IMG/VR virus record: IMGVR_UViG_2877958089_000005
Source: a virus
Lineage: Duplodnaviria > Heunggongvirae > Uroviricota > Caudoviricetes
DNA: 30,775 nt
Strand: one strand, 5' to 3'
Shown: in pieces, positions 1,247 through 24,311 of the stretch
How the letters are laid out: the number at the start of each line of letters is the position of its first letter
How positions within the stretch are numbered: the stretch's first letter is position 1
Made by a program: the position numbers and the translations under genes
The notes under the pieces: model-generated
What the model was told of the DNA's origin: nothing
Database searches by the model: none
What the model saw: the letters and a program-made list of their open reading frames with translations, nothing else

Positions 1247-1585
1247 TTAATTACAAAGGGCTGTAGCGGCATCAATCACCGGTGAAATTGAAATTTTAAC
1301 GCCGTCATACTCAGGGTCATCCTTCCATACGTCATCTAAGTTAGACCCCTCCAGCTTTCCTGATTTAACAGCATCTACCGCCATGCCATTCAGAGGATAT
1401 CTATCATCAGTTTTGATGTCATACACAAAAGCATAAGCACGGTTAACACATGATACCTTTGCCTTTTCAAAGGTTAGAGGCCACTTGTCACCATATGCAG
1501 CGCCGTCTATCTCTTTAAACTTCTCAGCGGCTATGACTGAGGAAGAAAGTGCAATGCAGACTATCGCAAATATAAACTTTTTCAT
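1247..1585 (-). CDS. Secreted/periplasmic small protein, DUF2511 (YebY-like) family candidate; moron between cI and int
   Basis: 112 aa; N-terminal signal peptide MKKFIFAIVCIALSSSVIAAE; C-terminal ...AATALCN; pattern GDKWPL...C...YPLNG...GK...DDP resembles YebY/DUF2511 as I recall it; SD AGGAG upstream of ATG 1583-1585. Confidence 0.6.
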   Translation of the reverse strand: MKKFIFAIVCIALSSSVIAAEKFKEIDGAAYGDKWPLTFEKAKVSCVNRAYAFVYDIKTDDRYPLNGMAVDAVKSGKLEGSNLDDVWKDDPEYDGVKISISPVIDAATALCN

Positions 1586-1594
1586 TACTGCTCC

Positions 1595-6830: not shown

Positions 6831-7013
6831 ATGGTTGGCGAACATTTCAGCCGAACGCAGCAAAAGTGGGCTTGTGTGCAATTTATTGCCGAGGTATCTC
6901 TGATTGCAAACTGCAAGCCATCAGACTTAAAGCTCGCGCTCACTCTCATTGCAGACCTAGCAAACAGCGAAAATAACGAAACCGAAGATGATAATTTTTA
7001 TAAGGCTGATTAG
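6831..7013 (+). CDS. Small LexA-controlled protein, candidate Tum-like antirepressor N-terminal module
   Basis: 60-aa ORF directly downstream of the LexA box with SD GGGAGGG; ends at TAG 7011-7013, in the same frame as the following DinI-like ORF. Confidence 0.55.
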   Translation: MVGEHFSRTQQKWACVQFIAEVSLIANCKPSDLKLALTLIADLANSENNETEDDNFYKAD

Positions 7014-7016
7014 ATT

Positions 7017-7250
7017 ATGAGAATCAATATCACGTTGGATAAAGAGCAAAAAATTAGTCAGGCAACATTGGATGCACTTGAGGCTGAACTGTACCGCAAT
7101 CTTCAACCTATTTACCCAAAGACTGCTATCCGAATTCGCAAGGGCTCCGCTAATGGCGTTGAACTAAGCGGTTTGAAACTGGACGAAGATAAAAAACGAG
7201 TAATGGAAATCATGCAGCAGGTATGGGAGGACGATAGCTGGCTGCATTAA
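7017..7250 (+). CDS. DinI-family protein (SOS-associated; 186 Tum-like C-terminal module)
   Basis: 77 aa MRINITLDK...LDALEAEL.R...E.DKKRVMEIMQQVWEDDSWLH resembles E. coli DinI (MRIEVTI...IDALAGEL...ISEILQETWESADDW) along its whole length. Confidence 0.75.
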   Translation: MRINITLDKEQKISQATLDALEAELYRNLQPIYPKTAIRIRKGSANGVELSGLKLDEDKKRVMEIMQQVWEDDSWLH

Positions 7251-7252
7251 CA

Positions 7253-7321
7253 AACGCCGCCGGTGCTGAAACTTGCTTTCAGTGCTGGCGGGGTTGAACA
7301 ACTCGCACCGCGAGGCGCTAG
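7253..7321 (+). repeat. Direct repeat copy 1 (69 bp) with internal 15-bp stem hairpin
   Basis: aacgccgccggtgctgaaacttgctttcagtgctggcggggttgaacaactcgcaccgcgaggcgctag; about 60 of 69 positions identical to copy 2; arms ccgccggtgctgaaa / tttcagtgctggcgg pair fully if G-U wobble is allowed. Confidence 0.8.
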
Positions 7322-7445
7322 TTCTTCCTCTCAAAGTTTCTCGATGTTTTATTGGTTACACACCAGTGATGAATGGGACGTTACCTTAGCGGGTTTTATA
7401 GTGGCGCTGTGGCAGCACTAAATAAAATTCATTGAGGGCGATAAT

Positions 7446-7655
7446 ATGCATCGACTACCGGGCGAAATTCCGCAGCACAAAACTAAAAGCATCAAACTGA
7501 TGGCCATCGTTCATCGTCTGCAGCAGATAATGGTCAATGAGAATTTGACACCCGCCGAGCTGGTCGGGTGTGCCGAAATAGTCAGGGATAATTACGGCAA
7601 GCTGGATAGCATCAGCAAGCCGACACATTACTCACCGCCACCACGTCGACCATAG
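7446..7655 (+). CDS. Hypothetical small protein flanked by the two 69-bp repeats
   Basis: 69-aa ORF; GAGGG 7 nt upstream of ATG 7446; stop lies immediately before repeat copy 2. Confidence 0.45.
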   Translation: MHRLPGEIPQHKTKSIKLMAIVHRLQQIMVNENLTPAELVGCAEIVRDNYGKLDSISKPTHYSPPPRRP

Positions 7656-7657
7656 AT

Positions 7658-7726
7658 AACGCCGCCGGAGTTGAAACTCGCTTTCAGGTCTGGCGGGGTT
7701 GAACAACGAGCTACGCGAGGCGTTAG
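7658..7726 (+). repeat. Direct repeat copy 2 (69 bp) with internal hairpin
   Basis: aacgccgccggagttgaaactcgctttcaggtctggcggggttgaacaacgagctacgcgaggcgttag; same architecture as copy 1. Confidence 0.8.
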
Positions 7727-7788
7727 CCGGTCATAGCGTCGCAAATACTTCAACCGTCTGCTGGTTAAATAATTCGAGGTTTTTGGAC

Positions 7789-7983
7789 ATGCAAAATCCC
7801 CTTTCATCGAAAAATGACCCGTTTGCCGATTGGGCAAAGAATCTGACTTTAATGGCTTTAAATAACGACCTGAGCTCTCGCGAGGTGGAAAGCTACACCG
7901 CAAAAATGGTCGAGCAGGCCGGTAAAGATGAGCTATCAGTCGTTATCAAACACCTGTTAAATCACATCAGAATGCGCAAATAA
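7789..7983 (+). CDS. Hypothetical small protein
   Basis: Track ORF 7699..7983 begins inside repeat copy 2; ATG at 7789 (MQNPLSSKNDPFADW...) is a more plausible start; 64 aa. Confidence 0.4.
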   Translation: MQNPLSSKNDPFADWAKNLTLMALNNDLSSREVESYTAKMVEQAGKDELSVVIKHLLNHIRMRK

Positions 7984-7999
7984 GAGGAACTATATAAAT

Positions 8000-8101
8000 A
8001 TGTTATCTCTCGTTTATGAAAATCCGTGGACGACGATTTTTCTGATGATTGTTGCCAGCATGTGCCTCAACAGTGTTATTGGCGCATTGCGCGGTCATTA
8101 A
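8000..8101 (+). CDS. 33-aa hydrophobic single-TM peptide (MLSLVYENPWTTIFLMIVASMCLNSVIGALRGH); candidate small membrane toxin-like or regulatory peptide
   Basis: Below the ORF-track size cutoff; SD AAGAGGA (7982-7988) then ATG 8000; followed by a canonical terminator. Confidence 0.4.
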   Translation: MLSLVYENPWTTIFLMIVASMCLNSVIGALRGH

Positions 8102-8122
8102 TCGCGACAAAACCAGACTAAA

Positions 8123-8149
8123 GCCGGCACCCTGAATGCCGGTTTTTTT
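8123..8149 (+). terminator. Rho-independent terminator
   Basis: ccggca-ccctgaa-tgccgg stem-loop followed by ttttttt. Confidence 0.7.
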
Positions 8150-8309
8150 ATGCCATTTTTCCGCGAATTTCCCGTTTTTTAGTCGTGCATGCATCAGGTG
8201 CATGGTTTTGCATGCGTCAGTCTTGCCCGTTCTGTTCGTGCGCCGCCAGAGCTAGCGCGGATCCAGAGTTGTCATGCAACTGCATTAAAACCGCCCCATA
8301 AAGCGGGCA

Positions 8310-8328
8310 GGCGTGGCGGGGAAAGCAT
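8310..8328. other. Candidate cos site (cohesive-end sequence)
   Basis: ggcgtggcggggaaagcat matches 17 of 19 positions of the P2 cos sequence as I recall it (GGCGAGGCGGGGAAAGCAC); located in the gene-free GC-rich stretch upstream of portal gene Q, where cos lies in P2. Confidence 0.55.
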
Positions 8329-8532
8329 TGCGCGCCAGCGGTGGTGCGTATTATTAAAAATTATCGTCTGAGAACGTCGTGACGGCGCTGTAGTGGCCGG
8401 GTGTGATCGTGGGCGCGTGGTGCGTCTGTGGCGTGGTGCTAAAGGATGGGATCAGTTGCACAATTTTACGGTTTCGCTTTGGCTAATATCCATATTGAGA
8501 CTTTATGTTCCCCACAACAGTTGGAGGCTTTA

Positions 8533-8757
8533 ATGGATAACTATCATATTACAAAAGATGGCGATAAGTGGAAGTTGCAAAAAGAGGGCAATGACCGCCC
8601 TAGCAAGACCGCGACCACAAAGGCCGAGCTGATTAAAACAACATCTGAGTTTATGTCGAACAAAACAGGCTCGGTCAAAATTCACAAGGAAGATGGGAAA
8701 ATTCAGGAAGAACGCACTTATCAGAGAAAAGATGATCCTAAAAAGTCTAAAGGCTAA
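8533..8757 (+). CDS. DUF2188-like small protein (moron between cos and Q)
   Basis: ATG 8533 preceded by GGAGG; 74 aa MDNYHITKDGDKWKLQKEG...IHKEDGKIQEERTY..DDP..KG fits my recollection of the DUF2188 pattern. Confidence 0.55.
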   Translation: MDNYHITKDGDKWKLQKEGNDRPSKTATTKAELIKTTSEFMSNKTGSVKIHKEDGKIQEERTYQRKDDPKKSKG

Positions 8758-16676: not shown

Positions 16677-17106
16677 CGCCGTGCCGCAGCTCCGAAATAA
16701 TCCCGATATGCTGCGCCTTTTTGCCGACAACGGCCATACCGATTCCCGACTGGCGAGCTCGCTGTCGTTTGAAAAGGTGTACGTGCTTAACGTGGTGGTG
16801 ACCGACTTCACCGGTGACCTTGATTTGATATTCGTGCCGGTGCAGGCGTGGCTGCGTGAACATCAGCCGGACATTATGACCACCGACGACGGGCGGGAAA
16901 AAGGATTCACCTGGATTATTGATATCAATAACGACGATTCGCTCGATATCAGTATCAGCCTGAGGCTCACCGAGCGCACACTCGTCAAAGAGGTCGACGG
17001 CGCGCTGCACGTCAGCTATGCCCCTGAGCCGCCACTGCCTGAGCCGGTGACGCGCCCGGTCGAGCTGTACGTTAACGGCGAACTGGTGAGTAAGTGGGAT
17101 GAGTGA
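16630..17106 (+). CDS. R: Tail completion protein R
   Basis: 158 aa; position and size as P2 R. Confidence 0.8.
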   Translation: MNSMQKHKSLRKALINAVPQLRNNPDMLRLFADNGHTDSRLASSLSFEKVYVLNVVVTDFTGDLDLIFVPVQAWLREHQPDIMTTDDGREKGFTWIIDINNDDSLDISISLRLTERTLVKEVDGALHVSYAPEPPLPEPVTRPVELYVNGELVSKWDE

Positions 17107-17545
17107 ATTAACCGTGCTGCAGGAACGCCTTGCCGGTCTGATTGCCAGCCTGTCACCGGCGGCACGTCGGCAAATGGCGGCTGAGATTGCGAAAAAGCTG
17201 CGTACCAGTCAGCAACAGCGTATCAAGCGCCAGCAGGCACCCGACGGCACCCCGTATGCGGCACGAAAGCGCCAGCCGGTGCGGAGCAAGAAAGGTCGGA
17301 TTAAACGTGAAATGTTCGCCAAACTGCGCACCAGTCGCTTTATGAAAGCCAAAGGCAGCGACAGTGCGGCGGTGGTGGAGTTTACCGGCAAGGTGCAGCG
17401 CATGGCGCGGGTTCATCAGTACGGCCTCAAAGACCGGCCAAACCGTAACAGCCGGGATGTGCAGTACGAGGCGCGCCCGTTGCTCGGTTTCAATAGTATA
17501 GATATGAGAATTATTGAGCGGTTAATAATTGGGGCTTTGGATTAA
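17099..17545 (+). CDS. S: Tail completion protein S
   Basis: 148 aa; overlaps the R stop; the C-terminal codons run into the AT-rich cargo junction, so the C-terminus may have been remodelled by the insertion. Confidence 0.8.
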   Translation: MSELTVLQERLAGLIASLSPAARRQMAAEIAKKLRTSQQQRIKRQQAPDGTPYAARKRQPVRSKKGRIKREMFAKLRTSRFMKAKGSDSAAVVEFTGKVQRMARVHQYGLKDRPNRNSRDVQYEARPLLGFNSIDMRIIERLIIGALD

Positions 17546-17573
17546 TTATGATCTAATATATTATTTTGTGATG

Positions 17574-17602
17574 AGGCTGGATAAACACCAGCCTTGATTT
17601 TA
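17574..17602 (+). terminator. Hairpin terminator at the S/cargo junction
   Basis: aggctgg-ataaacac-cagcct stem-loop followed by tgatttta; lies between convergent S (+) and the HIT gene (-). Confidence 0.5.
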
Positions 17603-18244
17603 TAGTTTGAAATCTGCGTAATTATCAATAACCTCTAGAACACCGCTGATGTTGTTATCTCTGCGCCAATTCCAATTGCCATGTATCAAATTTGCATTAG
17701 AATAAAGATATCTAAGGAACTGAGATGGTAAGAGTGGTTTGTTGCATAAAAATTCATCATAACTATTACTCATATACCACACATATCCATTTTTAATGTC
17801 AAAACTTAAATTCTCACCTTCAATTTTCTTAAAGTTAATTTCTTTATTTAGAGCATTTTCAAACTCTTGCGTATAATAAACACAGTGTATATGAGCGTGA
17901 GAAATGCACCCTCCCGAACGATCTATATTTTCACCTGCTCCGCTTTCAAAGAAAATTAGAGATCTACCAGATTGGTGGATTATAAATTCATTAAGTTCTC
18001 GCAGAATCTCCTTGCCATTACTCCGGGTATCTCGATCAAGAGCAGCAAAGGAGTTGATATGCCGCTTAGGAATCAGCATCACATGCGAATTATTTAGCGG
18101 GCCAATACTAGGTACAATTAGAAAATCATTTGTTTCTGCAATGATATTTTTCTTGTCATTTACGATTTCATCGTATCCTTTGATAAGGCTAATGCCATTT
18201 ATTTCATCGCATATTCCACAGAACGAATTACAAGAATTATTCAC
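17600..18244 (-). CDS. HIT (histidine-triad) family nucleotide hydrolase/transferase-like protein with a C-terminal extension; cargo gene 2
   Basis: 214 aa. Histidine triad H116-A-H-I-H120-C-V (GGCISHAHIHCVYY); upstream Hint-like FLIVPSIGPLNNSHVMLIPKRHI and N-terminal NSFCGIC, comparable to E. coli HinT as I recall it (ETIFSKII / THILIIPN / VYHIHMHLLGG). GTG start at 18244 with SD CAGGAGA 8 nt upstream, inside the 3' end of the TM gene. Confidence 0.8.
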   Translation of the reverse strand: MNNSCNSFCGICDEINGISLIKGYDEIVNDKKNIIAETNDFLIVPSIGPLNNSHVMLIPKRHINSFAALDRDTRSNGKEILRELNEFIIHQSGRSLIFFESGAGENIDRSGGCISHAHIHCVYYTQEFENALNKEINFKKIEGENLSFDIKNGYVWYMSNSYDEFLCNKPLLPSQFLRYLYSNANLIHGNWNWRRDNNISGVLEVIDNYADFKL

Positions 18245-18803
18245 GTTTATTGTCTCCTGGTTTTTTAGGGAGCAATTTTTCAGCCCAAGATGCGAGTCGG
18301 CTTAGAACTAAGTCTGAAAAATATCCTAATATAAAACAAATCGAGAATGCAATTTTGGTCTTACCATGCCCTTTAATGGAGGATACAAACGTATCCGGAG
18401 ATAATAGCGTATAAGAACAAAAAGCCACTAAAGCAGCTAAGAACGGAATAAAAATCCTCCAGTAGAACTTATGGGATTCCCAAGGGAAATTATACTGATT
18501 GTTTTTCCCTCTAGCAGTTACTCTATAAAACCATTTTGCATTATACACCCACCCTCCAAAAAAACCGCCAAGAATAGAAAACAAAGATATTTTATTATTA
18601 TATGTCAGCTCAAAAACAAATTGAAAAAGAAAGGCGAGAATGCAACCTATTACAAAAAGAACTATTAAATAAGCAAATTCGAATTTTATTTGTTCACAAT
18701 CGTTATTAAAATAAGGCACAACCTCATCATCGCCTAAGGTTTTTTTTCTTTCAGTCATTTGCCAAACACCTTCATTTTTTACTGTGAGCCAGGGTAATTG
18801 CAT
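18237..18803 (-). CDS. Polytopic inner-membrane protein (about 4 TM helices); cargo gene 1
   Basis: Hydrophobic segments FAYLIVLFVIGCILAFLFQFVF, ISLFSILGGFFGGWVY, FYWRIFIPFLAALVAFCSYTLL, IAFSICFILGYFSDLVL; basic C-terminal tail. Track start 18809 is TTG; first ATG is 18801-18803. Stop overlaps the HIT gene start region. Confidence 0.7.
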   Translation of the reverse strand: MQLPWLTVKNEGVWQMTERKKTLGDDEVVPYFNNDCEQIKFEFAYLIVLFVIGCILAFLFQFVFELTYNNKISLFSILGGFFGGWVYNAKWFYRVTARGKNNQYNFPWESHKFYWRIFIPFLAALVAFCSYTLLSPDTFVSSIKGHGKTKIAFSICFILGYFSDLVLSRLASWAEKLLPKKPGDNKRE

Positions 18804-18934
18804 ATTCAACTTGGCTATTCTAATTAATTCTCACAAGATTTCATAGATGTTGAGTAGACCTCTCAGAAGTTGTTTCATTCCTCACAGAATCCATCTCGAT
18901 TGCCACTAATCTTGCCGGGCGTCATCCTTCCCAT

Positions 18935-19570
18935 ATGAAAAATCTAAATTCTTTGCAAGAAATCGCACGCGCGATCCGAAATCTCATCCGTACCGGCATC
19001 GTTAGCGACGTAGACCTCAAGGAGGGGCTATGTCGTATCCAGACCGGGGGGATGCAAACCACTTGGCTGAACTGGCTGACCACCCGAGCCGGTCGTTCGC
19101 GGACGTGGTGGGCTCCCTCGGTCGGTGAGCAGGTTCTGCTGCTGGCAATCGGTGGCGAGCTTGATACCGCTTTCGTGCTGCCGGGTATTTTCTCCGACGA
19201 TAATCCCGCCCCGTCTGCCTCGGCGGATGCGTGGCATGTGGCTTTCCCTGATGGTGCGGTCATTGAGTACGAGCCCGAAACCGGCGCGCTGACGGTCAGC
19301 GGCATAAAAACGGCCGACGTGACGGCATCGGAGTCCATCACCGCAACCGTACCGCTGGTACTGGTGAAAGCCTCGACCAGTATCACCCTCGACACCCCGG
19401 AGGTGATTTGCACCAATAAGCTAACGACGGCGACGCTTGAGGTGCAGAAAGGCGGCAAGATGAGCGGCAATATCGAACATACCGGCGGGTCACTGTCGTC
19501 TAATGGCAAGGTACTCCACACCCATAAACACCCGGGCGACAGCGGCGGGCAAACGGGGGCACCGTTATGA
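18935..19570 (+). CDS. V: Baseplate spike protein V
   Basis: 211 aa; MKNLNSLQEIARAIRNLIRTGIV...GKVLHTHKHPGDSGGQTGAPL closely resembles P2 gpV. Confidence 0.9.
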   Translation: MKNLNSLQEIARAIRNLIRTGIVSDVDLKEGLCRIQTGGMQTTWLNWLTTRAGRSRTWWAPSVGEQVLLLAIGGELDTAFVLPGIFSDDNPAPSASADAWHVAFPDGAVIEYEPETGALTVSGIKTADVTASESITATVPLVLVKASTSITLDTPEVICTNKLTTATLEVQKGGKMSGNIEHTGGSLSSNGKVLHTHKHPGDSGGQTGAPL

Positions 19571-20829: not shown

Positions 20830-21430
20830 CCGGCTATTACCCGTTGGCTCGTCGCCGCTGGAGGTCGCCGCCGCCGCTGCGTTCTCTGAGATTCAGCGCG
20901 TGCCGGTACCGCTGCGCACCCTGTGGAACTGGCGCACCTGCCCGGTAAAGCTGCTGCCGTATCTGGCGTGGGCGCTGTCGGTCGACAGGTGGGATGAGAA
21001 ATGGCCGGAGGCGACAAAGCGCAGCGTCTGCGCGTCCTCGTTTTTCGTCCATCAGCACAAAGGCACCATCAGCGCATTGCGTCGGGTCGTCGAGCCGCTC
21101 GGCTTTCTGATTGAGGTGCGCGAGTGGTGGCAACTCGACGAGGAGCCAGGCACATTCCGCCTCGTTGTTGGCGTCCTCGACAGCGGCATCACTGACGAAA
21201 TGTATCAGGAGCTTGAGCGCCTGATTGAAGACGCCAAACCGGCAAGTCGCCACCTGACCGGGCTGGCTATCAGTCTGAGCTCGACCGGCGAACTGTATGT
21301 CGGCGCGGGATGCTATCACGGCGACGCGCTGACTGTTTACCCCTACACCCCCGAGGAGATTGTCGTCGGCGGTGAATATTACCCGGCCTCGGCCATCCAT
21401 TTGATTGATAACCTGAGAGTAAACGCATGA
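20822..21430 (+). CDS. I: Baseplate/tail-fibre attachment protein I
   Basis: 202 aa; overlaps the J stop; P2 I position. Confidence 0.8.
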   Translation: MNDRLLPVGSSPLEVAAAAAFSEIQRVPVPLRTLWNWRTCPVKLLPYLAWALSVDRWDEKWPEATKRSVCASSFFVHQHKGTISALRRVVEPLGFLIEVREWWQLDEEPGTFRLVVGVLDSGITDEMYQELERLIEDAKPASRHLTGLAISLSSTGELYVGAGCYHGDALTVYPYTPEEIVVGGEYYPASAIHLIDNLRVNA

Positions 21431-22491
21431 CCGCAAAATATTTTGCCATTCTGACCAATCAGGGCGCGGCGCGGCTGGCGAACGCGGCGGCACTCGGTAC
21501 CAAACTCAACCTGACGCAGATGGCCGTCGGTGATGCGAATGGTTCGTTGCCGACCCCTGAGCCGGCGCAGACGAAGCTCATTAACCAGAAACGCATCGCG
21601 CCGCTGAACCTGCTGACCGTTGACCCGGCCAATACCAGTCAGATTATCGCGGAACAGATTATTCCCGAGAATGAAGGTGGTTTCTGGATCCGCGAGATTG
21701 GTCTCTATGACGATGATGGTATTCTGATTGCCGTGGCGAACTGTCCGGAGACCTACAAGCCACAACTGCAGGAGGGAAGCGGTCGCACGCAGACCATTCG
21801 CATGATTCTGATTGTGTCGAGCACATCGGCAATCACCCTGAAAATCGACCCGGCAGTCGTGCTGGCAACGCGCCAGTATGTCGACGACAAGGTTATCGAG
21901 GTGAAAGGATATGCTGATGACCTGATGAAAAAACATGTTGAGGCCGCCAATCCACACAAGCAGTACCCGTTAATCGCTAATGCTCTGAAAGAAATGGTTG
22001 ACGCGGGACTGGTCGGCGACGTTCTTAAAAACCTTGGTTTGGGAGAAGGTGCTCCAGCTATTGGCGTTCCGTTCTTCTGGCCGTCCGCTGCAATGCCAAA
22101 TACTGTAATCGATAGCTGGTCCAGTATGGTGTTTTTGAAGTTCAACGGGGCGAAATTTTCTGCCTCTGATTACCCTGTGCTGGCAAAAGTGTTTCCTTCG
22201 CTGGTATTACCTGAAGCCCGCGGTGATTTCATTCGTATCTGGGATGATGGGCGAGGGGCGGACAGTGGGCGAGCATTATTAAGCTGGCAGGCAGCAACAG
22301 CTTTATCGCAATTTGGCGGTAATTATCCAGAAGGGTCCGGCCATGCGATTGCTGATTACGATGGAATATCAGCACACCAACCAGGTTTCTCTCGATTTCA
22401 GTACACCAGTAACTCAGTAGGAGATGGTGTTAATTTTATTGCCGTCAGACCACGTAACATTGCATTTAACTTTCTGGTGAGGGCTAAATAA
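21427..22491 (+). CDS. H: Tail fibre protein H: constant N-terminal part fused to the currently expressed variable C-terminal part (Sv)
   Basis: 354 aa; N-terminus MTAKYFAILTNQGAARLANAAALGTKLNLT is the conserved P2 H start; a hix-like crossover site lies inside the gene at 22022-22047, so residues after about 207 belong to the invertible segment. Confidence 0.85.
   Translation: MTAKYFAILTNQGAARLANAAALGTKLNLTQMAVGDANGSLPTPEPAQTKLINQKRIAPLNLLTVDPANTSQIIAEQIIPENEGGFWIREIGLYDDDGILIAVANCPETYKPQLQEGSGRTQTIRMILIVSSTSAITLKIDPAVVLATRQYVDDKVIEVKGYADDLMKKHVEAANPHKQYPLIANALKEMVDAGLVGDVLKNLGLGEGAPAIGVPFFWPSAAMPNTVIDSWSSMVFLKFNGAKFSASDYPVLAKVFPSLVLPEARGDFIRIWDDGRGADSGRALLSWQAATALSQFGGNYPEGSGHAIADYDGISAHQPGFSRFQYTSNSVGDGVNFIAVRPRNIAFNFLVRAK
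22022..22047 (+). repeat. hix/gix-like inversion crossover site (left inverted repeat), inside H
   Basis: ttcttaaaaaccttggtttgggagaa resembles the Hin hixL site as I recall it (TTCTTGAAAACCAAGGTTTTTGATAA); the 14-bp core TTGGTTTGGGAGAA recurs inverted at 23985-24010. Confidence 0.7.
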
Positions 22492-23084
22492 TGAAACCTG
22501 TTTTTGATGAAAATGGACTGGCTACAGTGCCGGGTGATATGCGTTGTTTTTATTATGATGCAGTAACGTATGAATATACGGGCTGGTCTGATGAATATAT
22601 TAATACTGGTGTAAGTATGCCCGCCTGTTCCACTGGTATTGACCCGGGCGAAAACATTCCGGGAAAAGTGGCAGTATTTACAGGTAAGGGATGGAGCCAT
22701 GAAGAAGACCATCGCAATGAGACTGTTTACTCAATCGAAAATGGTGCTGCTGTTACAGTGGATTATATCGGTGCCATCAAAAACGGTTATGTCACGCTTT
22801 CACCGTTAACGCCATATGATAAATGGGATGGTGAGAAATGGGTGACAGATACTGAGGCACAACACGGTGCCGCAGTAGAAGCGGCAGAAGCACAGCGCCA
22901 GTCACTGATTGATGCAGCAATGGCTTCCATCAGTCTGATTCAGCTGAAATTACAGGCCGGGCGGAAGCTGACGCAGGCAGAAACCACCCGGCTTAACGCC
23001 GTGCTTGATTACATTGACGCGGTGACGGCAACAGATACGAGCACCGCGCCGGATGTCATCTGGCCTGAACTGCCGGAGGCGTAG
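22491..23084 (+). CDS. G: Tail fibre assembly chaperone (P2 gpG / Mu U type), expressed orientation
   Basis: 197 aa; start overlaps the H stop; C-terminus ...PDVIWPELPEA parallels the C-terminus of the inverted copy (...PDIEWPTPPAVQAR). Confidence 0.8.
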   Translation: MKPVFDENGLATVPGDMRCFYYDAVTYEYTGWSDEYINTGVSMPACSTGIDPGENIPGKVAVFTGKGWSHEEDHRNETVYSIENGAAVTVDYIGAIKNGYVTLSPLTPYDKWDGEKWVTDTEAQHGAAVEAAEAQRQSLIDAAMASISLIQLKLQAGRKLTQAETTRLNAVLDYIDAVTATDTSTAPDVIWPELPEA

Positions 23085-23637
23085 GCCATTCAATATCTGG
23101 CGCACCGGAAGTATCGACCAGTTCCAGTGCGTCCAGATAATCCAGCCACAAATTATATTGCGCCAGTTCCTCACCTTTCAGGCGACCAATCGCCGCTTTA
23201 CCAGGCCATTGCTTACTGTTTATGTATTCGNNNNNNNNNNNNNNNNNNNNNNNNNNNNNNNNNNNNNNNNNNNNNNNNNNNNNNNNNNNNNNNNNNNNNN
23301 NNNNNNNNNNNNNNNNNNNNNNNNNNNNNNTCGCCGCTTTACCAGGCCATTGCTTACTGTTTATGTATTCGTTGACCTGATTAATCAATTGCTGCTTTTC
23401 CAGTTCGGCTGCGGCAATTTGTTCCTCATGAGTTGGCGGTGGAATATCAATCCATGCTGGCATTCCGTCGATGACACCTCTGTACTTTCCTTCTGGTGCT
23501 TCCTTCATAAATTCAGCGGCAGCAGTGTCGTCAATTTCGATTCCATCATCAGGCCATTTCCCCGCTTCCTGATAAGCAATTTTAAGCTCCACAGGGAAAA
23601 ACGCATTTTTATCAGCACTGAAAATATATTTCTGCAT
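23056..23637 (-). CDS. Alternative tail fibre assembly chaperone (U'-type), silent orientation; interrupted by a 100-N assembly gap
   Basis: 193 aa including X residues from the N-run; coordinates and length are only approximate because of the gap. Confidence 0.6.
   Translation of the reverse strand: MQKYIFSADKNAFFPVELKIAYQEAGKWPDDGIEIDDTAAAEFMKEAPEGKYRGVIDGMPAWIDIPPPTHEEQIAAAELEKQQLINQVNEYINSKQWPGKAAXXXXXXXXXXXXXXXXXXXXXXXXXXXXXXXXXXEYINSKQWPGKAAIGRLKGEELAQYNLWLDYLDALELVDTSGAPDIEWPTPPAVQAR
23231..23330. other. Assembly gap (100 N) flanked by an exact 41-bp duplication
   Basis: tcgccgctttaccaggccattgcttactgtttatgtattcg occurs at 23190-23230 and again at 23331-23371, either side of the N-run; consistent with overlapping contig ends scaffolded with a spacer. 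Confidence 0.9.
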
Positions 23638-23639
23638 TT

Positions 23640-23993
23640 CTACCGTCCTATCGAAATATAACTGAATCTGTATTGTTGAGAGATATCACTGATTGCCACG
23701 CGCCACGCTGAATTACTGATATGTTCAAAATTTACAGATAAAACCAGCGGTGCAGGATTCGACGGTTCTGACTGAACGGCATCAGACATGACACTGACTG
23801 AAACAAGCGGTTGATTAGGGAATGGTATAGGGAAGTGTCCACTGATAATGCGGGTCGTGTTCCCTGAAAAAGTGCCAAACTGAACAATATATCCACCTGG
23901 TAGCCTGAACCATCCCGAGCCAGAAGCGAATGCTCCCATATCCGGTATCTGATTTTCCCCTGTCCCCACATTCCTTCTTGCCGCTTCTCCCAA
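23640..23993 (-). CDS. Alternative tail fibre C-terminal segment (Sv'), promoterless in this orientation
   Basis: Reading the minus strand through the right hix-like site gives LGEAARRNVGTGENQ..., sharing the junction LGEGA/LGEAA with H; it would be fused in frame to the H constant region after inversion. Confidence 0.65.
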   Translation of the reverse strand: MGEAARRNVGTGENQIPDMGAFASGSGWFRLPGGYIVQFGTFSGNTTRIISGHFPIPFPNQPLVSVSVMSDAVQSEPSNPAPLVLSVNFEHISNSAWRVAISDISQQYRFSYISIGR

Positions 23994-24010
23994 ACCAACC
24001 TTTTAGAAAA
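23985..24010 (-). repeat. hix/gix-like inversion crossover site (right inverted repeat)
   Basis: ttctcccaaaccaaccttttagaaaa; its reverse complement ttttctaaaaggttggtttgggagaa shares TTGGTTTGGGAGAA with the left site. Confidence 0.7.
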
Positions 24011-24064
24011 TGCAGATATTCCGTTCAGCTGGCATGTTCCCGACTTTTTACCGGGTTATTTCTC

Positions 24065-24311
24065 ATGTTTATCGGTTATGTACGTGTATCAACAAATGAC
24101 CAGAACACCGCATTACAGCGAAATGAACTGGAGTGCGCAGGATGTGAGCTGATTTTCGAAGATAAAATCAGCGGCAAAACATCAATCAGACTGGCCGGGG
24201 CTAAAGAGGTTACTCAGAACCTTGTCAGAGGGCGATACGCTTGTGGTCTGGAAACTGGATCGCCTCGGGTATCTCAACGCTATACAAACAATTTCCCGCA
24301 TCCGTTGCTGA
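24065..24311 (+). pseudogene. Remnant of a Hin/Gin/Pin-family serine DNA invertase (frameshifted and C-terminally deleted)
   Basis: ATG 24065: MFIGYVRVSTNDQNTALQRNELECAGCELIFEDKISGK... resembles the Hin N-terminus, including the catalytic Ser in YVRVSTNDQ; the conserved GDTLVVWKLDRLG is encoded one frame over from about 24231, implying a 1-nt insertion; similarity ends near 24270 and FI begins at 24410, so over half the gene, including the DNA-binding domain, is missing. Confidence 0.7.

What the first reader, a model, noticed from the sequence alone, without database searches (positions are those of the whole stretch)
17546..18934. AT-rich antisense two-gene cargo (4-TM membrane protein + HIT-family enzyme) inserted between tail genes S and V: candidate undescribed defence or accessory system
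The late operon is GC-rich and entirely plus-strand, but between S and V there is about 1.4 kb of clearly AT-rich DNA (by eye, well below the flanks; not computed) carrying two minus-strand genes. They are translationally coupled: the stop of the upstream TM gene lies 3 nt from the GTG start of the HIT gene, whose SD is inside the TM gene. S-V is a known moron position in P2 (orf30), and P2-like phages are known to carry anti-phage systems in such hotspots. A membrane protein paired with a nucleotide-acting enzyme is a recurring effector/sensor logic in abortive-infection systems. I do not recognise this HIT + 4-TM pair as a named system; it could be related to the hydrolase-plus-TM cassettes reported from P2 hotspots, but that is recollection only.
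Basis: partly seen in the sequence, partly recalled or inferred. Interest (0 to 1): 0.85.

Follow-up and report, generated by a model that had tools for sequence, protein, structure and literature searches.

The report
Membrane protein plus HIT enzyme cassette
A prophage in E. coli carries a foreign two-gene unit, a small membrane protein coupled to a nucleotide-cleaving HIT enzyme of the type found in eukaryotic splicing factors; the pair travels together between phages and defence islands of many bacteria, so it is probably an unnamed anti-phage or similar accessory system, but its function has not been tested.

Summary
Window 17546-18934 averages 34% GC against 56-59% in the flanks. It carries two minus-strand genes between tail genes S and V of a 186-like prophage. 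They encode a 173-aa four-helix membrane protein (18758-18237) and a 214-aa HIT enzyme (18244-17600), overlapping by 8 nt (GTGAATAA).

Every close relative examined keeps the order membrane gene then HIT gene, with overlapping or abutting frames. The pair is always lower in GC than its surroundings.

It turns up in:
- the S-V gap and the A-portal hotspot of P2/186-like prophages;
- next to the repressor of Pseudomonas integrative elements;
- beside Septu, a DUF262/GmrSD-type protein and a PADLOC candidate-system gene;
- alone in housekeeping DNA.

No PADLOC model and no paper in the searchable library covers it.

Best reading: a mobile accessory module expressed in the lysogen, probably anti-phage. 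Function and mechanism are inferred, not shown.

The parts
17099..17545 (+). Tail completion gene S (186 gene O). Its last ~17 codons (from ~17490) belong to the AT-rich exchanged segment.
   Evidence: Pfam Phage_tail_S 1.2e-34. Alignment with 186, Midge and 613R3 diverges from ~17490.
17490..18975 (.). Approximate extent of the foreign, low-GC exchanged segment (the cargo plus the ends of S and V).
   Evidence: Composition profile; alignments to the empty-site phages 186 and Midge; pair GC 0.342 against flanks 0.586 and 0.563.
17572..17596 (+). G+C-rich hairpin followed by a T-run on the + strand. It looks like the terminator of the S-ending late operon and lies 4 nt beyond the HIT stop codon on the other strand.
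   Evidence: Terminator-like site with 9 pairs, 5 of them G-C. This is a consensus match only.
17600..18244 (-). HIT-superfamily enzyme of CwfJ/CWF19 type, 214 aa, GTG start. Features: C9-x2-C12, H54, H62, C113, H116-A-H118-I-H120, and a C-terminal PLLPSQFLRYLY...WNWRR motif.
18237..18758 (-). Inner-membrane protein, 173 aa, four helices. It has an invariant cytoplasmic loop K75-WFYRVTARG-84 plus E27, G65/G68/G69 and D149. It belongs to no Pfam, NCBIfam or PADLOC family.
   Evidence: no family. phrog_22917 5e-134, unknown function. Alignment of 52 homologues. AlphaFold2 pLDDT 82 with helices 20-48, 53-82, 95-119 and 133-162. Hydropathy and K+R counts of 13 inside against 2 outside.
18237..18258 (-). 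Coupling junction: SD AGGAG (18258-18254), 9-nt spacer, GTG start of HIT (18244-18242), which overlaps the end of the membrane gene (TAA stop 18239-18237).
   Evidence: Sequence. In relatives the overlap is 4-17 nt, or a 2-nt gap in Burkholderia.
18817..18844 (-). Sigma-70-like promoter candidate for the cassette (ATGAAA-16-TAGAAT), about 60 nt upstream of the membrane-gene ATG.
   Evidence: Consensus scan, 9 of 12 matches, no more frequent than in shuffles. The TAGAAT block and its surroundings are conserved in the Enterobacter and Pantoea multigeneris cassettes. Weak evidence.
18893..18934 (+). Retained upstream region of V (presumed late promoter and leader), alignable with 186 and Midge.
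   Evidence: Alignment. The promoter function is inferred from what is known of P2/186 late operons, not tested here.
18935..19570 (+). Baseplate spike gene V. Its first ~14 codons differ from 186 and Midge.
   Evidence: Pfam Phage_base_V, Phage_spike and Apex; alignment.

Best explanation
The insert is a self-contained, horizontally mobile two-gene operon carried as a moron. It sits in the gap between two late operons of a 186-like prophage: after the terminator that follows S, and before the V upstream region.

It encodes a four-helix inner-membrane protein and, translationally coupled to it, a cytoplasmic HIT-superfamily nucleotidyl hydrolase or transferase. That enzyme is predicted to be catalytically competent, and its whole fold corresponds to the CwfJ module of eukaryotic CWF19/Drn1 proteins.

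I infer three things:
1. The pair is transcribed from its own promoter in the lysogen, antisense to the silent late genes.
2. The enzyme docks on the invariant basic cytoplasmic loop of the membrane protein.
3. The module protects the lysogen against other phages.

My preferred mechanism is this. The HIT enzyme reads or processes a molecule with a nucleoside-5'-phosphate linkage that appears or disappears on infection. Candidates are an adenylated, capped or branched nucleic-acid end, or a dinucleoside polyphosphate. The enzyme thereby controls the membrane partner, which acts as the effector by depolarising or permeabilising the membrane (abortive infection or exclusion).

Shown: anatomy, intact catalytic motif, fold, obligate pairing, mobility, and location in prophage cargo and defence hotspots. 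Inferred: expression in the lysogen, physical complex, defence role, substrate, and which partner is sensor and which is effector.
For: Anatomy and coupling.

Enzyme:
- HIT, CwfJ_C_1 and DcpS_C hits are all above their Pfam cut-offs.
- H54, H62, C113, H116, H118 and H120 are invariant, and C9 and C12 nearly so, in 50 homologues of 37-81% identity.
- The model is confident (pLDDT 90.7).

Obligate pair:
- In all close loci examined the membrane gene lies immediately upstream of the HIT gene.
- The two most divergent membrane homologues checked, at 40-42% identity, are also followed by a CwfJ-like HIT.
- Pairwise identities of the two proteins correlate (r = 0.83), and the membrane protein is the more conserved in 153 of 153 comparisons.

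Mobility: the pair has lower GC than both flanks in 15 of 15 loci.

Contexts that point to defence or prophage cargo:
- S-V gap in E. coli (8 genomes).
- S-V gap in a decayed Enterobacter prophage that also carries Septu (PtuA 7.5e-90, PtuB 2.8e-61).
- The replication-endonuclease to portal hotspot of a P2-like phage in Pantoea-type contigs. That is the tin/old hotspot of Rousset 2022 and Vassallo 2022.
- Retained in a nearly erased Pantoea prophage.
- Between an integrase (upstream) and the S24 repressor in a Pseudomonas element; the same repressor-adjacent layout recurs in six IMG/VR contigs.
- Next to a DUF262/GmrSD-type protein that hits HEC-06, Orf5 and SspE models, plus IS elements, in Herbaspirillum.
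- Next to a PDC-M02B candidate-system protein (4e-41) beside a filamentous prophage in Vibrio.

One alternative cargo at the same S-V site hits PD-T4-7 (4.8e-9, partial).

Topology: K+R counts place the invariant loop in the cytoplasm with the enzyme.
Against: - There is no functional data of any kind.
- No known defence model matches either protein.
- About a third of the contexts are ordinary housekeeping neighbourhoods: Pseudomonas 9AZ, Burkholderia, Rhodoferax, Thalassospira, L039 and L041.
- The Halomonas neighbour operon looks Mks/Wadjet-like by Pfam but hits no PADLOC Jet model.
- The promoter call is no better than chance.
- The membrane protein has no structural relative that would mark it as a pore or an effector. 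That it is more conserved than the enzyme would equally fit a transporter or a membrane enzyme.
- The module is rare: 8 of 5426 E. coli genomes, none of 50,697 isolated phage genomes, and 4 close hits among 185,579 species genomes in a pattern-limited scan.
Confidence: 0.5

Rival explanations
1. Immunity or detoxification against a nucleotide-type toxin, such as a microcin C-like aminoacyl-adenylate or another phosphoramidate or nucleotide antibiotic. The HIT enzyme would hydrolyse the toxic nucleotide and the membrane protein would export it or block its uptake. This would be a lysogenic-conversion trait that helps the host in bacterial competition rather than against phages.
For: - The HxHxH triad is of the hydrolase type and intact.
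- At sequence level the protein is about as close to Hint-type phosphoramidases as to CWF19.
- The wider family is fused to NUDIX and nucleoside deoxyribosyltransferase-like domains, which points to small-nucleotide chemistry.
- Several contexts are solitary insertions in housekeeping DNA.
- The membrane protein carries invariant acidic residues in or next to its membrane helices (E27, D149), as small transporters do.
- From my own knowledge, not checked here: E. coli HinT and the HIT-like MccH hydrolyse processed microcin C.
Against: - No toxin-biosynthesis genes lie nearby in any locus.
- The cassette recurs in prophage defence hotspots and beside Septu, a DUF262/GmrSD-type protein and a PDC-M02 candidate-system gene.
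- The membrane protein matches no transporter family.
Confidence: 0.15
2. Counter-defence. The HIT enzyme would destroy a nucleotide-derived immune signal or modified nucleic-acid intermediate of a host defence system, to the benefit of the phage.
For: - A HIT-domain protein (ThsC) accompanies 2.4% of Thoeris systems according to the PADLOC paper, so HIT enzymes can sit in nucleotide-signalling immunity.
- An Apyc1-like gene lies 1 kb from the pair in Halomonas.
- The CwfJ fold is linked in eukaryotes to 2'-5' branched RNA, and from my own knowledge retron msDNA is 2'-5' branched.
Against: - The genes are antisense to the late operons, between a terminator and a late promoter, which suits expression in the lysogen rather than during infection.
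- The pair is kept in heavily decayed prophages and in chromosomal sites with no phage genes.
- It is absent from all 50,697 isolated phage genomes.
- A membrane partner more conserved than the enzyme is hard to explain for a soluble signal sponge or hydrolase.
Confidence: 0.1
3. An addiction or toxin-antitoxin-like module, or a lipid or envelope-modifying conversion function, with no role in phage defence. One version: a membrane toxin is held in check by the enzyme. Another: a membrane-bound pair acts on a nucleotide-activated lipid such as CDP-diacylglycerol.
For: - It is a small, mobile, tightly coupled two-gene unit inserted at many unrelated sites.
- It is retained in decayed prophages.
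- Four-helix membrane enzymes that act on lipid head groups are a described theme, the Lipocone superfamily (PMC12419801).
Against: - Cdh is no closer than generic HIT folds, and far behind CWF19.
- Of the ancestral Lipocone positions (His in helix 2, Glu in helix 3, Asp in helix 4), only an Asp in helix 4 has a counterpart here.
- No Pfam family in the Lipocone set hits.
- Addiction alone does not explain the placement in defence hotspots.
Confidence: 0.15

Closest known systems
Eukaryotic CWF19 / Drn1 C-terminal module (Pfam CwfJ_C_1 plus CwfJ_C_2; CWF19L1, CWF19L2, S. pombe Cwf19)
   Same: - CwfJ_C_1 is the top Pfam hit.
- The spacing of the conserved Cys and His pairs and of an Arg...Trp pair mirrors the residues that Garrey et al. 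found necessary in Drn1: C269/C272, H311/H319, H366/H368 and R459/W474, against C9/C12, H54/H62, H116/H118 and R178/W193 here. This mapping rests on spacing only.
   Different: - It is bacterial and stand-alone, at 214 aa.
- It has no metallophosphoesterase-like, RRM or zinc-finger N-terminal region.
- It is paired with a membrane protein.
- It has a full HxHxH triad.
- Its C-terminal half has no sequence-level match to CwfJ_C_2.
- At sequence level it is no closer to CWF19 than to archaeal Hint-like proteins.
- Eukaryotic members work in intron-lariat turnover, a process with no obvious counterpart here.
Classical HIT enzymes (Hint, Fhit, Ap4A phosphorylase, aprataxin, DcpS, GalT)
   Same: It shares the HIT alpha/beta core, the N-terminal CxxC, the HxHxH motif with the middle His as presumed nucleophile, and Pfam HIT and DcpS_C hits.
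Rousset et al. 2022 'HAD-like hydrolase plus transmembrane protein' (from the P4 hotspot; anti-T7)
   Same: It has the same two-gene logic of a hydrolase plus a membrane protein, and is carried by an element of the P2/P4 system.
   Different: The enzyme superfamily differs (HAD, not HIT). The element and locus differ (P4 psu-int). No PADLOC model hits either protein, and there is no mention of HIT in the paper or its supplements.
Prophage-encoded membrane-effector pairs such as lambda RexAB or Kiwa KwaAB (comparison from my own knowledge)
   Same: Each is a prophage or defence-island pair of a roughly 4-TM inner-membrane protein and a cytoplasmic partner, expressed in the lysogen.
   Different: No sequence or structural similarity was found. 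The cytoplasmic partner here is a HIT enzyme.
Thoeris-associated HIT protein ThsC (PADLOC 'Thoeris type II')
   Same: It is a HIT-domain protein in a defence context.
   Different: The window protein matches no PADLOC model, so no ThsC model matched it. No TIR, SIR2 or Macro partner lies in the window cassette or next to the pair in the relatives.

Membership tests
HIT superfamily | Profile match to the HIT domain (PF01230) above the gathering score | tested here: met
   23.4 bits against a cut-off of 21.5, E 9.6e-5. The related models DcpS_C (28.5 against 24) and CwfJ_C_1 (28.4 against 21) also pass.
HIT superfamily | His-x-His-x-His-x-x catalytic motif | tested here: met
   H116-A-H118-I-H120-C-V. 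All three His are invariant in 50 homologues.
HIT superfamily | HIT alpha/beta fold | tested here: met
   [not shown]
HIT superfamily | Nucleotidyl hydrolase or transferase activity through a covalent His-NMP intermediate | not testable with these tools
   Needs biochemistry.
CwfJ / CWF19 C-terminal module | CwfJ_C_1 profile match | tested here: met
   PF04677, 28.4 bits against a cut-off of 21, residues 30-130.
CwfJ / CWF19 C-terminal module | CwfJ_C_2 profile match for the C-terminal half | tested here: not met
   No PF04676 hit for the full protein at E<=1, nor for 20 C-terminal segments at E<=10. The PDB profile search with the C-terminal segment gives only spurious hits.
CwfJ / CWF19 C-terminal module | Structural correspondence over both halves | tested here: met
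   [not shown]
CwfJ / CWF19 C-terminal module | Association with the spliceosome, Dbr1 or lariat RNA | not testable with these tools
   This context is eukaryotic and has no bacterial equivalent. No Dbr1-like gene lies beside the pair in any locus.
Known anti-phage defence systems (PADLOC-DB 2.0.0) | Match of either protein to any of the 5027 models | tested here: not met
   No families at E<=1 for either protein.
Anti-phage defence system in general | Recurrent location in defence islands or prophage defence hotspots | tested here: inconclusive
   Roughly two thirds of the independent contexts inspected are mobile elements or lie beside defence-type genes, and about a third are housekeeping. 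No background-corrected enrichment was computed.
Anti-phage defence system in general | Protection against phage when expressed in a naive host | not testable with these tools
   An experiment is required.
Rousset 'HAD-like hydrolase plus TM' system | HAD-superfamily hydrolase component | tested here: not met
   The enzyme is HIT, with no HAD hit. The paper describes a HAD-like hydrolase in the P4 hotspot.
Lipocone superfamily (for the membrane protein) | Four-helix core with conserved His (helix 2), Glu (helix 3) and Asp (helix 4), as described in PMC12419801 | tested here: inconclusive
   [not shown]
P2 orf30 (the cargo at S-V in phage P2) | Sequence similarity to the gene at this position in P2 | tested here: not met
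   tblastn of both proteins against 50,697 phage records finds nothing. I assume from my own knowledge that P2 is among those records; I did not check.

The most novel reading that the evidence does not exclude
This is an unnamed anti-phage system. Its enzymatic component is a catalytically intact bacterial counterpart of the eukaryotic CWF19/Drn1 CwfJ module. It acts on a nucleic-acid end or junction that carries a nucleoside-5'-phosphate linkage (5'-adenylated, capped, or 2'-5' branched) and gates a new four-helix membrane effector. If so, the bacterial pair would also reveal the still unknown chemistry of the CwfJ domain found in spliceosome-associated proteins.
Probability: 0.2. Interest if true: 0.85.

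Novelty: new variant of a known kind. Interest (0 to 1): 0.65.

Why it matters
If the pair protects against phages, it would add a new enzyme class, HIT of CwfJ type, and a new membrane-protein family to bacterial immunity. It would also mark the S-V gap of 186-like prophages as a further cargo hotspot, besides the two described for P2.

Whatever its role, it is a compact, tractable bacterial version of the CwfJ module. According to the one study read here (Garrey et al. 2014), that module's conserved Cys/His residues are needed for intron-lariat turnover in yeast, and no catalytic activity is assigned to it. A 214-aa bacterial enzyme with an intact triad makes that question directly testable.

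The membrane partner is also worth study in its own right. It is more conserved than the enzyme and carries a ten-residue invariant cytoplasmic loop.

Tried and rejected
- **Known defence families.** A PADLOC scan of both proteins found nothing.
- **NCBIfam.** Only sub-threshold noise.
- **Rfam, 17300-19100.** Nothing.
- **Transposon-like ends.** There are no convincing flanking repeats, only an imperfect 14-nt inverted pair.
- **Sequence-level link of the C-terminal half to CwfJ_C_2.** Not found.
- **Isolated phages and plasmids.** tblastn gave no phage hit for either protein and one distant plasmid hit for the HIT protein.
- **Literature.** Nine of the ten searches combined HIT, histidine triad or CwfJ with defence, phage or conflict terms. 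They gave only the PADLOC note on ThsC and the Drn1 paper. Two large discovery preprints contain no mention of HIT or CwfJ.
- **Kinship with the 'hydrolase plus TM' system of Rousset et al.** Rejected, because that system is HAD-like and from P4.
- **Wadjet neighbour in Halomonas.** I first read it that way from Pfam, then downgraded it because no PADLOC Jet model matched.
- **Lipocone membership of the membrane protein.** Considered and left open.
- **GTDB-wide scan.** It was limited by exact peptide patterns and returned only 11 loci, so it says little about true frequency.
Full report
**1. What is in the sequence**

The window is almost exactly a 186-like (Peduoviridae) prophage of E. coli. 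The same DNA, at 100% identity over the segments compared, lies between yfiB and rplS in strain AST217. The late genes are on the plus strand.

Between S (17099-17545, Phage_tail_S 1e-34) and V (18935-19570) lie 1389 bases. In 300-nt windows their GC content is 31-39%, against 53-65% in the flanks.

Two minus-strand genes fill this space:
- A membrane-protein gene, 18758-18237 (173 aa). It has an ATG start with a GAAGGTG Shine-Dalgarno sequence. PGAP and the 173-aa homologues agree on this start.
- A HIT gene, 18244-17600 (214 aa, GTG start).

The GTG overlaps the end of the membrane gene (GTGAATAA, 8 nt). It is preceded by AGGAG, 9 nt upstream.

A hairpin with a T-run on the plus strand (17572-17596) follows S. 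A sigma-70-like site (18844-18817, minus strand) precedes the membrane gene. Both are consensus matches only. The -10-like TAGAAT block is conserved in the Enterobacter and Pantoea multigeneris versions of the cassette.

Phages 186 and Midge have no insert here. Against them, divergence begins about 17 codons before the S stop and ends about 14 codons into V. The region just upstream of V still aligns. From what is known of P2 and 186, S ends one late operon and V starts another, so this is an inter-operon gap. That point is background knowledge, not tested here.

**2. The enzyme**

The 214-aa protein passes the Pfam cut-offs of CwfJ_C_1, DcpS_C and HIT.

An alignment of 50 homologues at 37-81% identity shows these features:
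- C9 and C12 nearly invariant.
- H54, H62, C113, H116, H118 and H120 invariant.
- A C-terminal region of about 85 residues with invariant or nearly invariant motifs: GYxW, NxPLLPSQFLRYLY and WNWR.

The E. coli protein has R109 where at least 90% of the family has His. A solved archaeal HIT protein also has Arg at the aligned position.

Sequence profiles do not detect this. At sequence level the protein is no closer to CWF19 than to Hint-like proteins.

The residues that Garrey et al. found conserved or necessary in yeast Drn1 are C269/C272, H311/H319, H366/H368 and R459/W474. They have the same internal spacings as C9/C12, H54/H62, H116/H118 and R178/W193 here. I treat this as a lead, not an alignment.

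**3. The membrane protein**

It belongs to no Pfam, NCBIfam or PADLOC family. PHROGs holds both proteins as families of unknown function, phrog_22917 and phrog_23000.

AlphaFold2 (pLDDT 82) gives helices at 20-48, 53-82, 95-119 and 133-162. Hydropathy supports three of them strongly. The second is glycine-rich (GGFxGGW).

Lys+Arg counts are 13 for the N-terminus, the loop between helices 2 and 3, and the C-terminus, against 2 for the other two loops. This places both termini and the invariant loop K75-WFYRVTARG-84 in the cytoplasm. E27 and D149 are invariant acidic residues in or next to the membrane helices.

Fold searches gave only generic helical bundles.

**4. The pair is one unit, and it moves**

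Homologues of both proteins occur in Enterobacter, Pantoea, Proteus, Vibrio, Halomonas, Pseudomonas, Burkholderia, Herbaspirillum, Undibacterium, Rhodoferax, Thalassospira and many metagenomes.

- In every close locus the membrane gene lies immediately upstream of the HIT gene. The overlap is 4-17 nt, or a 2-nt gap in one case.
- The two most divergent membrane homologues checked, at 40-42% identity, are also followed by a CwfJ-like HIT.
- Pairwise identities of the two proteins across 18 loci correlate (r = 0.83).
- The membrane protein is the more conserved in all 153 comparisons (57% against 44% mean identity).
- In 15 of 15 loci the pair has lower GC than both flanks, by 4 to 28 points.

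A full HMMER scan of 1.84 billion cluster representatives finds 47 clusters at E<=1e-30 and 2090 at E<=1e-10.

The wider family consists of full-length CwfJ-like HIT proteins of about 200-240 aa. Distant members at 23-27% identity include DPANN archaea and CPR bacteria. These lack the membrane partner and sometimes occur in tandem.

Some members of the wider family are fused to NUDIX, nucleoside-deoxyribosyltransferase-like or SAM-methyltransferase domains. This points to nucleotide chemistry.

**5. Where the pair sits**

| Host or source | Context |
|---|---|
| E. coli | S-V gap of the 186-like prophage; 8 of 5426 complete genomes at >=99.6% identity; about 10% of the 78 genomes with a closely related S-V region |
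| Enterobacter sp. FB | Between an S remnant and V in a decayed P2-like prophage that also carries Septu (PtuA 7.5e-90, PtuB 2.8e-61) |
| Pantoea-type contigs | Between the replication endonuclease region and the portal gene (72% identical to the window's portal); this is the tin/old hotspot that Vassallo 2022 describes, citing Rousset 2022 |
| Candidatus Pantoea multigeneris | Between Ogr and CI fragments of an almost erased prophage |
| Pseudomonas sp. TNT2022 | Next to the S24 repressor, with an integrase about 2.7 kb upstream and a Toprim-VapE primase beyond the repressor |
| Six IMG/VR viral contigs | Same repressor-adjacent layout, judged by gene sizes and order only |
| Vibrio | Beside a filamentous prophage and next to a protein matching the PADLOC candidate PDC-M02B (4e-41) |
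| Herbaspirillum | Beside two DUF262/GmrSD_N proteins and IS21/Mu transposition genes; one of the two hits HEC-06, Orf5 and SspE models |
| Halomonas | After an MksBEF-like operon with a DUF7281 gene; it looks Wadjet-like by Pfam but hits no PADLOC Jet model |
| Pseudomonas 9AZ, Burkholderia, Rhodoferax, L039, L041 | Solitary insertions in housekeeping DNA |
| Thalassospira | Solitary insertion between a TetR gene and a 49-aa TetR fragment |

No isolated phage genome carries either gene.

**6. The S-V gap as a cargo site**

I took an evenly spaced sample of the E. coli genomes that match this region and looked at the 22 with a closely related S-V region:

| State of the S-V gap | Genomes |
|---|---|
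| Empty | 8 |
| HIT pair | 3 |
| Pentapeptide-repeat protein | 6 |
| Other single genes | 5 |

Three representatives of the 'other single genes' were examined: a 347-aa plus-strand ORF, a 261-aa UPF0489 protein, and a 287-aa protein with a partial PD-T4-7 match (4.8e-9).

Vassallo et al. describe two P2 hotspots, A-portal and Z/fun. Neither that paper nor Rousset et al. mentions S-V or orf30.

**7. How it most likely works**

*Shown:* a mobile, obligate operon of a membrane protein and a HIT enzyme. The enzyme has every catalytic hallmark conserved. The operon is placed antisense between two late operons of a temperate phage, and it recurs in prophage cargo sites and next to defence genes.

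*Inferred:* it is expressed in the lysogen; the enzyme sits on the cytoplasmic face of the membrane protein; and the module protects the lysogen from other phages.

I commit to this model. The HIT enzyme senses or turns over a nucleoside-5'-phosphate-linked molecule tied to infection and controls the membrane protein, which is the effector. Overall confidence in a defence-type role is about 0.5. Confidence in the specific sensor and effector assignment is about 0.2.

The reverse arrangement is also possible: the membrane protein senses DNA entry and the enzyme attacks a phage nucleic-acid end.

The rivals are nucleotide-toxin immunity, counter-defence, and an addiction or lipid-modifying function. 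Each is listed with its evidence in the rival explanations. The placement in the lysogen-expressed orientation, retention in dead prophages, and absence from isolated phages argue most strongly against counter-defence.

**8. Comparison with what is known**

As a protein, the enzyme is a member of the HIT superfamily: all sequence and fold criteria are met. By fold it is a CwfJ/CWF19-type module, although the CwfJ_C_2 sequence criterion is not met.

As a system, it is not a member of any PADLOC family and is not the HAD-hydrolase plus TM system of Rousset et al. It works like the broad class of prophage morons that pair a cytoplasmic protein with a small membrane protein. That comparison is analogy only.

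Nine of the ten literature searches combined HIT, histidine triad or CwfJ with defence, phage or conflict terms. None found a description of this pair. The only HIT-defence link found is ThsC in a subset of Thoeris loci.

**9. Verdict**

This is an uncharacterised, rare but widely dispersed two-gene module with a good circumstantial case for a defence or other accessory role. It also has an unexpected structural tie to eukaryotic CWF19/Drn1 proteins.

- Novelty: new variant of a known kind, a prophage enzyme-plus-membrane cargo built from families not seen in named systems.
- Interest: 0.65.

Noticed in passing
window 17490-18975, compared with L001, L035, L036, L037, L038: The S-V gap of 186-like prophages in E. 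coli is a polymorphic cargo site. It is empty, or holds the HIT pair, a pentapeptide-repeat protein, a 347-aa plus-strand ORF, a UPF0489 protein, or a 287-aa protein with a partial PD-T4-7 match. The two P2 hotspot papers read here do not list this site.
   Followed up: partly
window 17490-17545 and 18935-18975: At least the window's cargo and the pentapeptide cargo of phage 613R3 (the two compared) bring their own AT-rich versions of the last ~17 codons of S and the first ~14 codons of V. The recombination joints therefore lie inside the structural genes, not in the intergenic DNA.
   Followed up: partly
window 1248-1586 (-): A DUF2511 gene sits between the integrase and the CI repressor genes. 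It looks like another small cargo gene in the immunity region (PGAP annotation of the identical E. coli record).
   Followed up: no
window ~21427-24170: The tail-fibre region holds two opposed tail-fibre-assembly genes, a truncated tail-fibre pseudogene and a frameshifted recombinase. It looks like a decayed invertible host-range switch (PGAP annotation).
   Followed up: no
window 6832-8757: The classical P2 defence hotspot, between the replication endonuclease and the portal, holds only small genes here: DinI, DUF2188 and three short hypotheticals. It contains no recognisable defence system.
   Followed up: no
L018 9306-10845 (Thalassospira): The cassette sits between a complete TetR_N plus TetR_C_3 gene and a 49-aa TetR_C_3 fragment. 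It looks as if insertion duplicated or split the 3' end of the regulator.
   Followed up: no
P0209-P0355; L025-L031: There is a much larger family of full-length CwfJ-like HIT proteins of about 200-240 aa: 2090 clusters at E<=1e-10. It reaches DPANN archaea and CPR bacteria and lacks the membrane partner. Some members occur in tandem, and some are fused to NUDIX, nucleoside-deoxyribosyltransferase-like or SAM-methyltransferase domains.
   Followed up: partly
window 17918-17920 (codon 109 of the HIT gene): The E. coli enzyme has Arg at position 109, where at least 90% of the family has His (the HSGGC motif). A solved archaeal HIT protein also has Arg at the aligned position, so the change is probably tolerated.
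   Followed up: partly
L002 2751-9167 and 11663-12625 (Halomonas): The pair follows an MksBEF-like operon with a DUF7281 gene that no PADLOC Jet model recognises. An Apyc1-like metallo-beta-lactamase-fold gene lies 1 kb downstream.
   Followed up: partly
window 17505-17518 and 18820-18833: An imperfect 14-nt inverted repeat (86% complementary) brackets the cassette. In DNA this AT-rich it is probably chance.
   Followed up: no
L041 8001-9874: In one divergent locus, the HIT gene ends 3 nt before a Cytidylate_kin2-family gene on the same strand. This may be a three-gene variant of the module.
   Followed up: no
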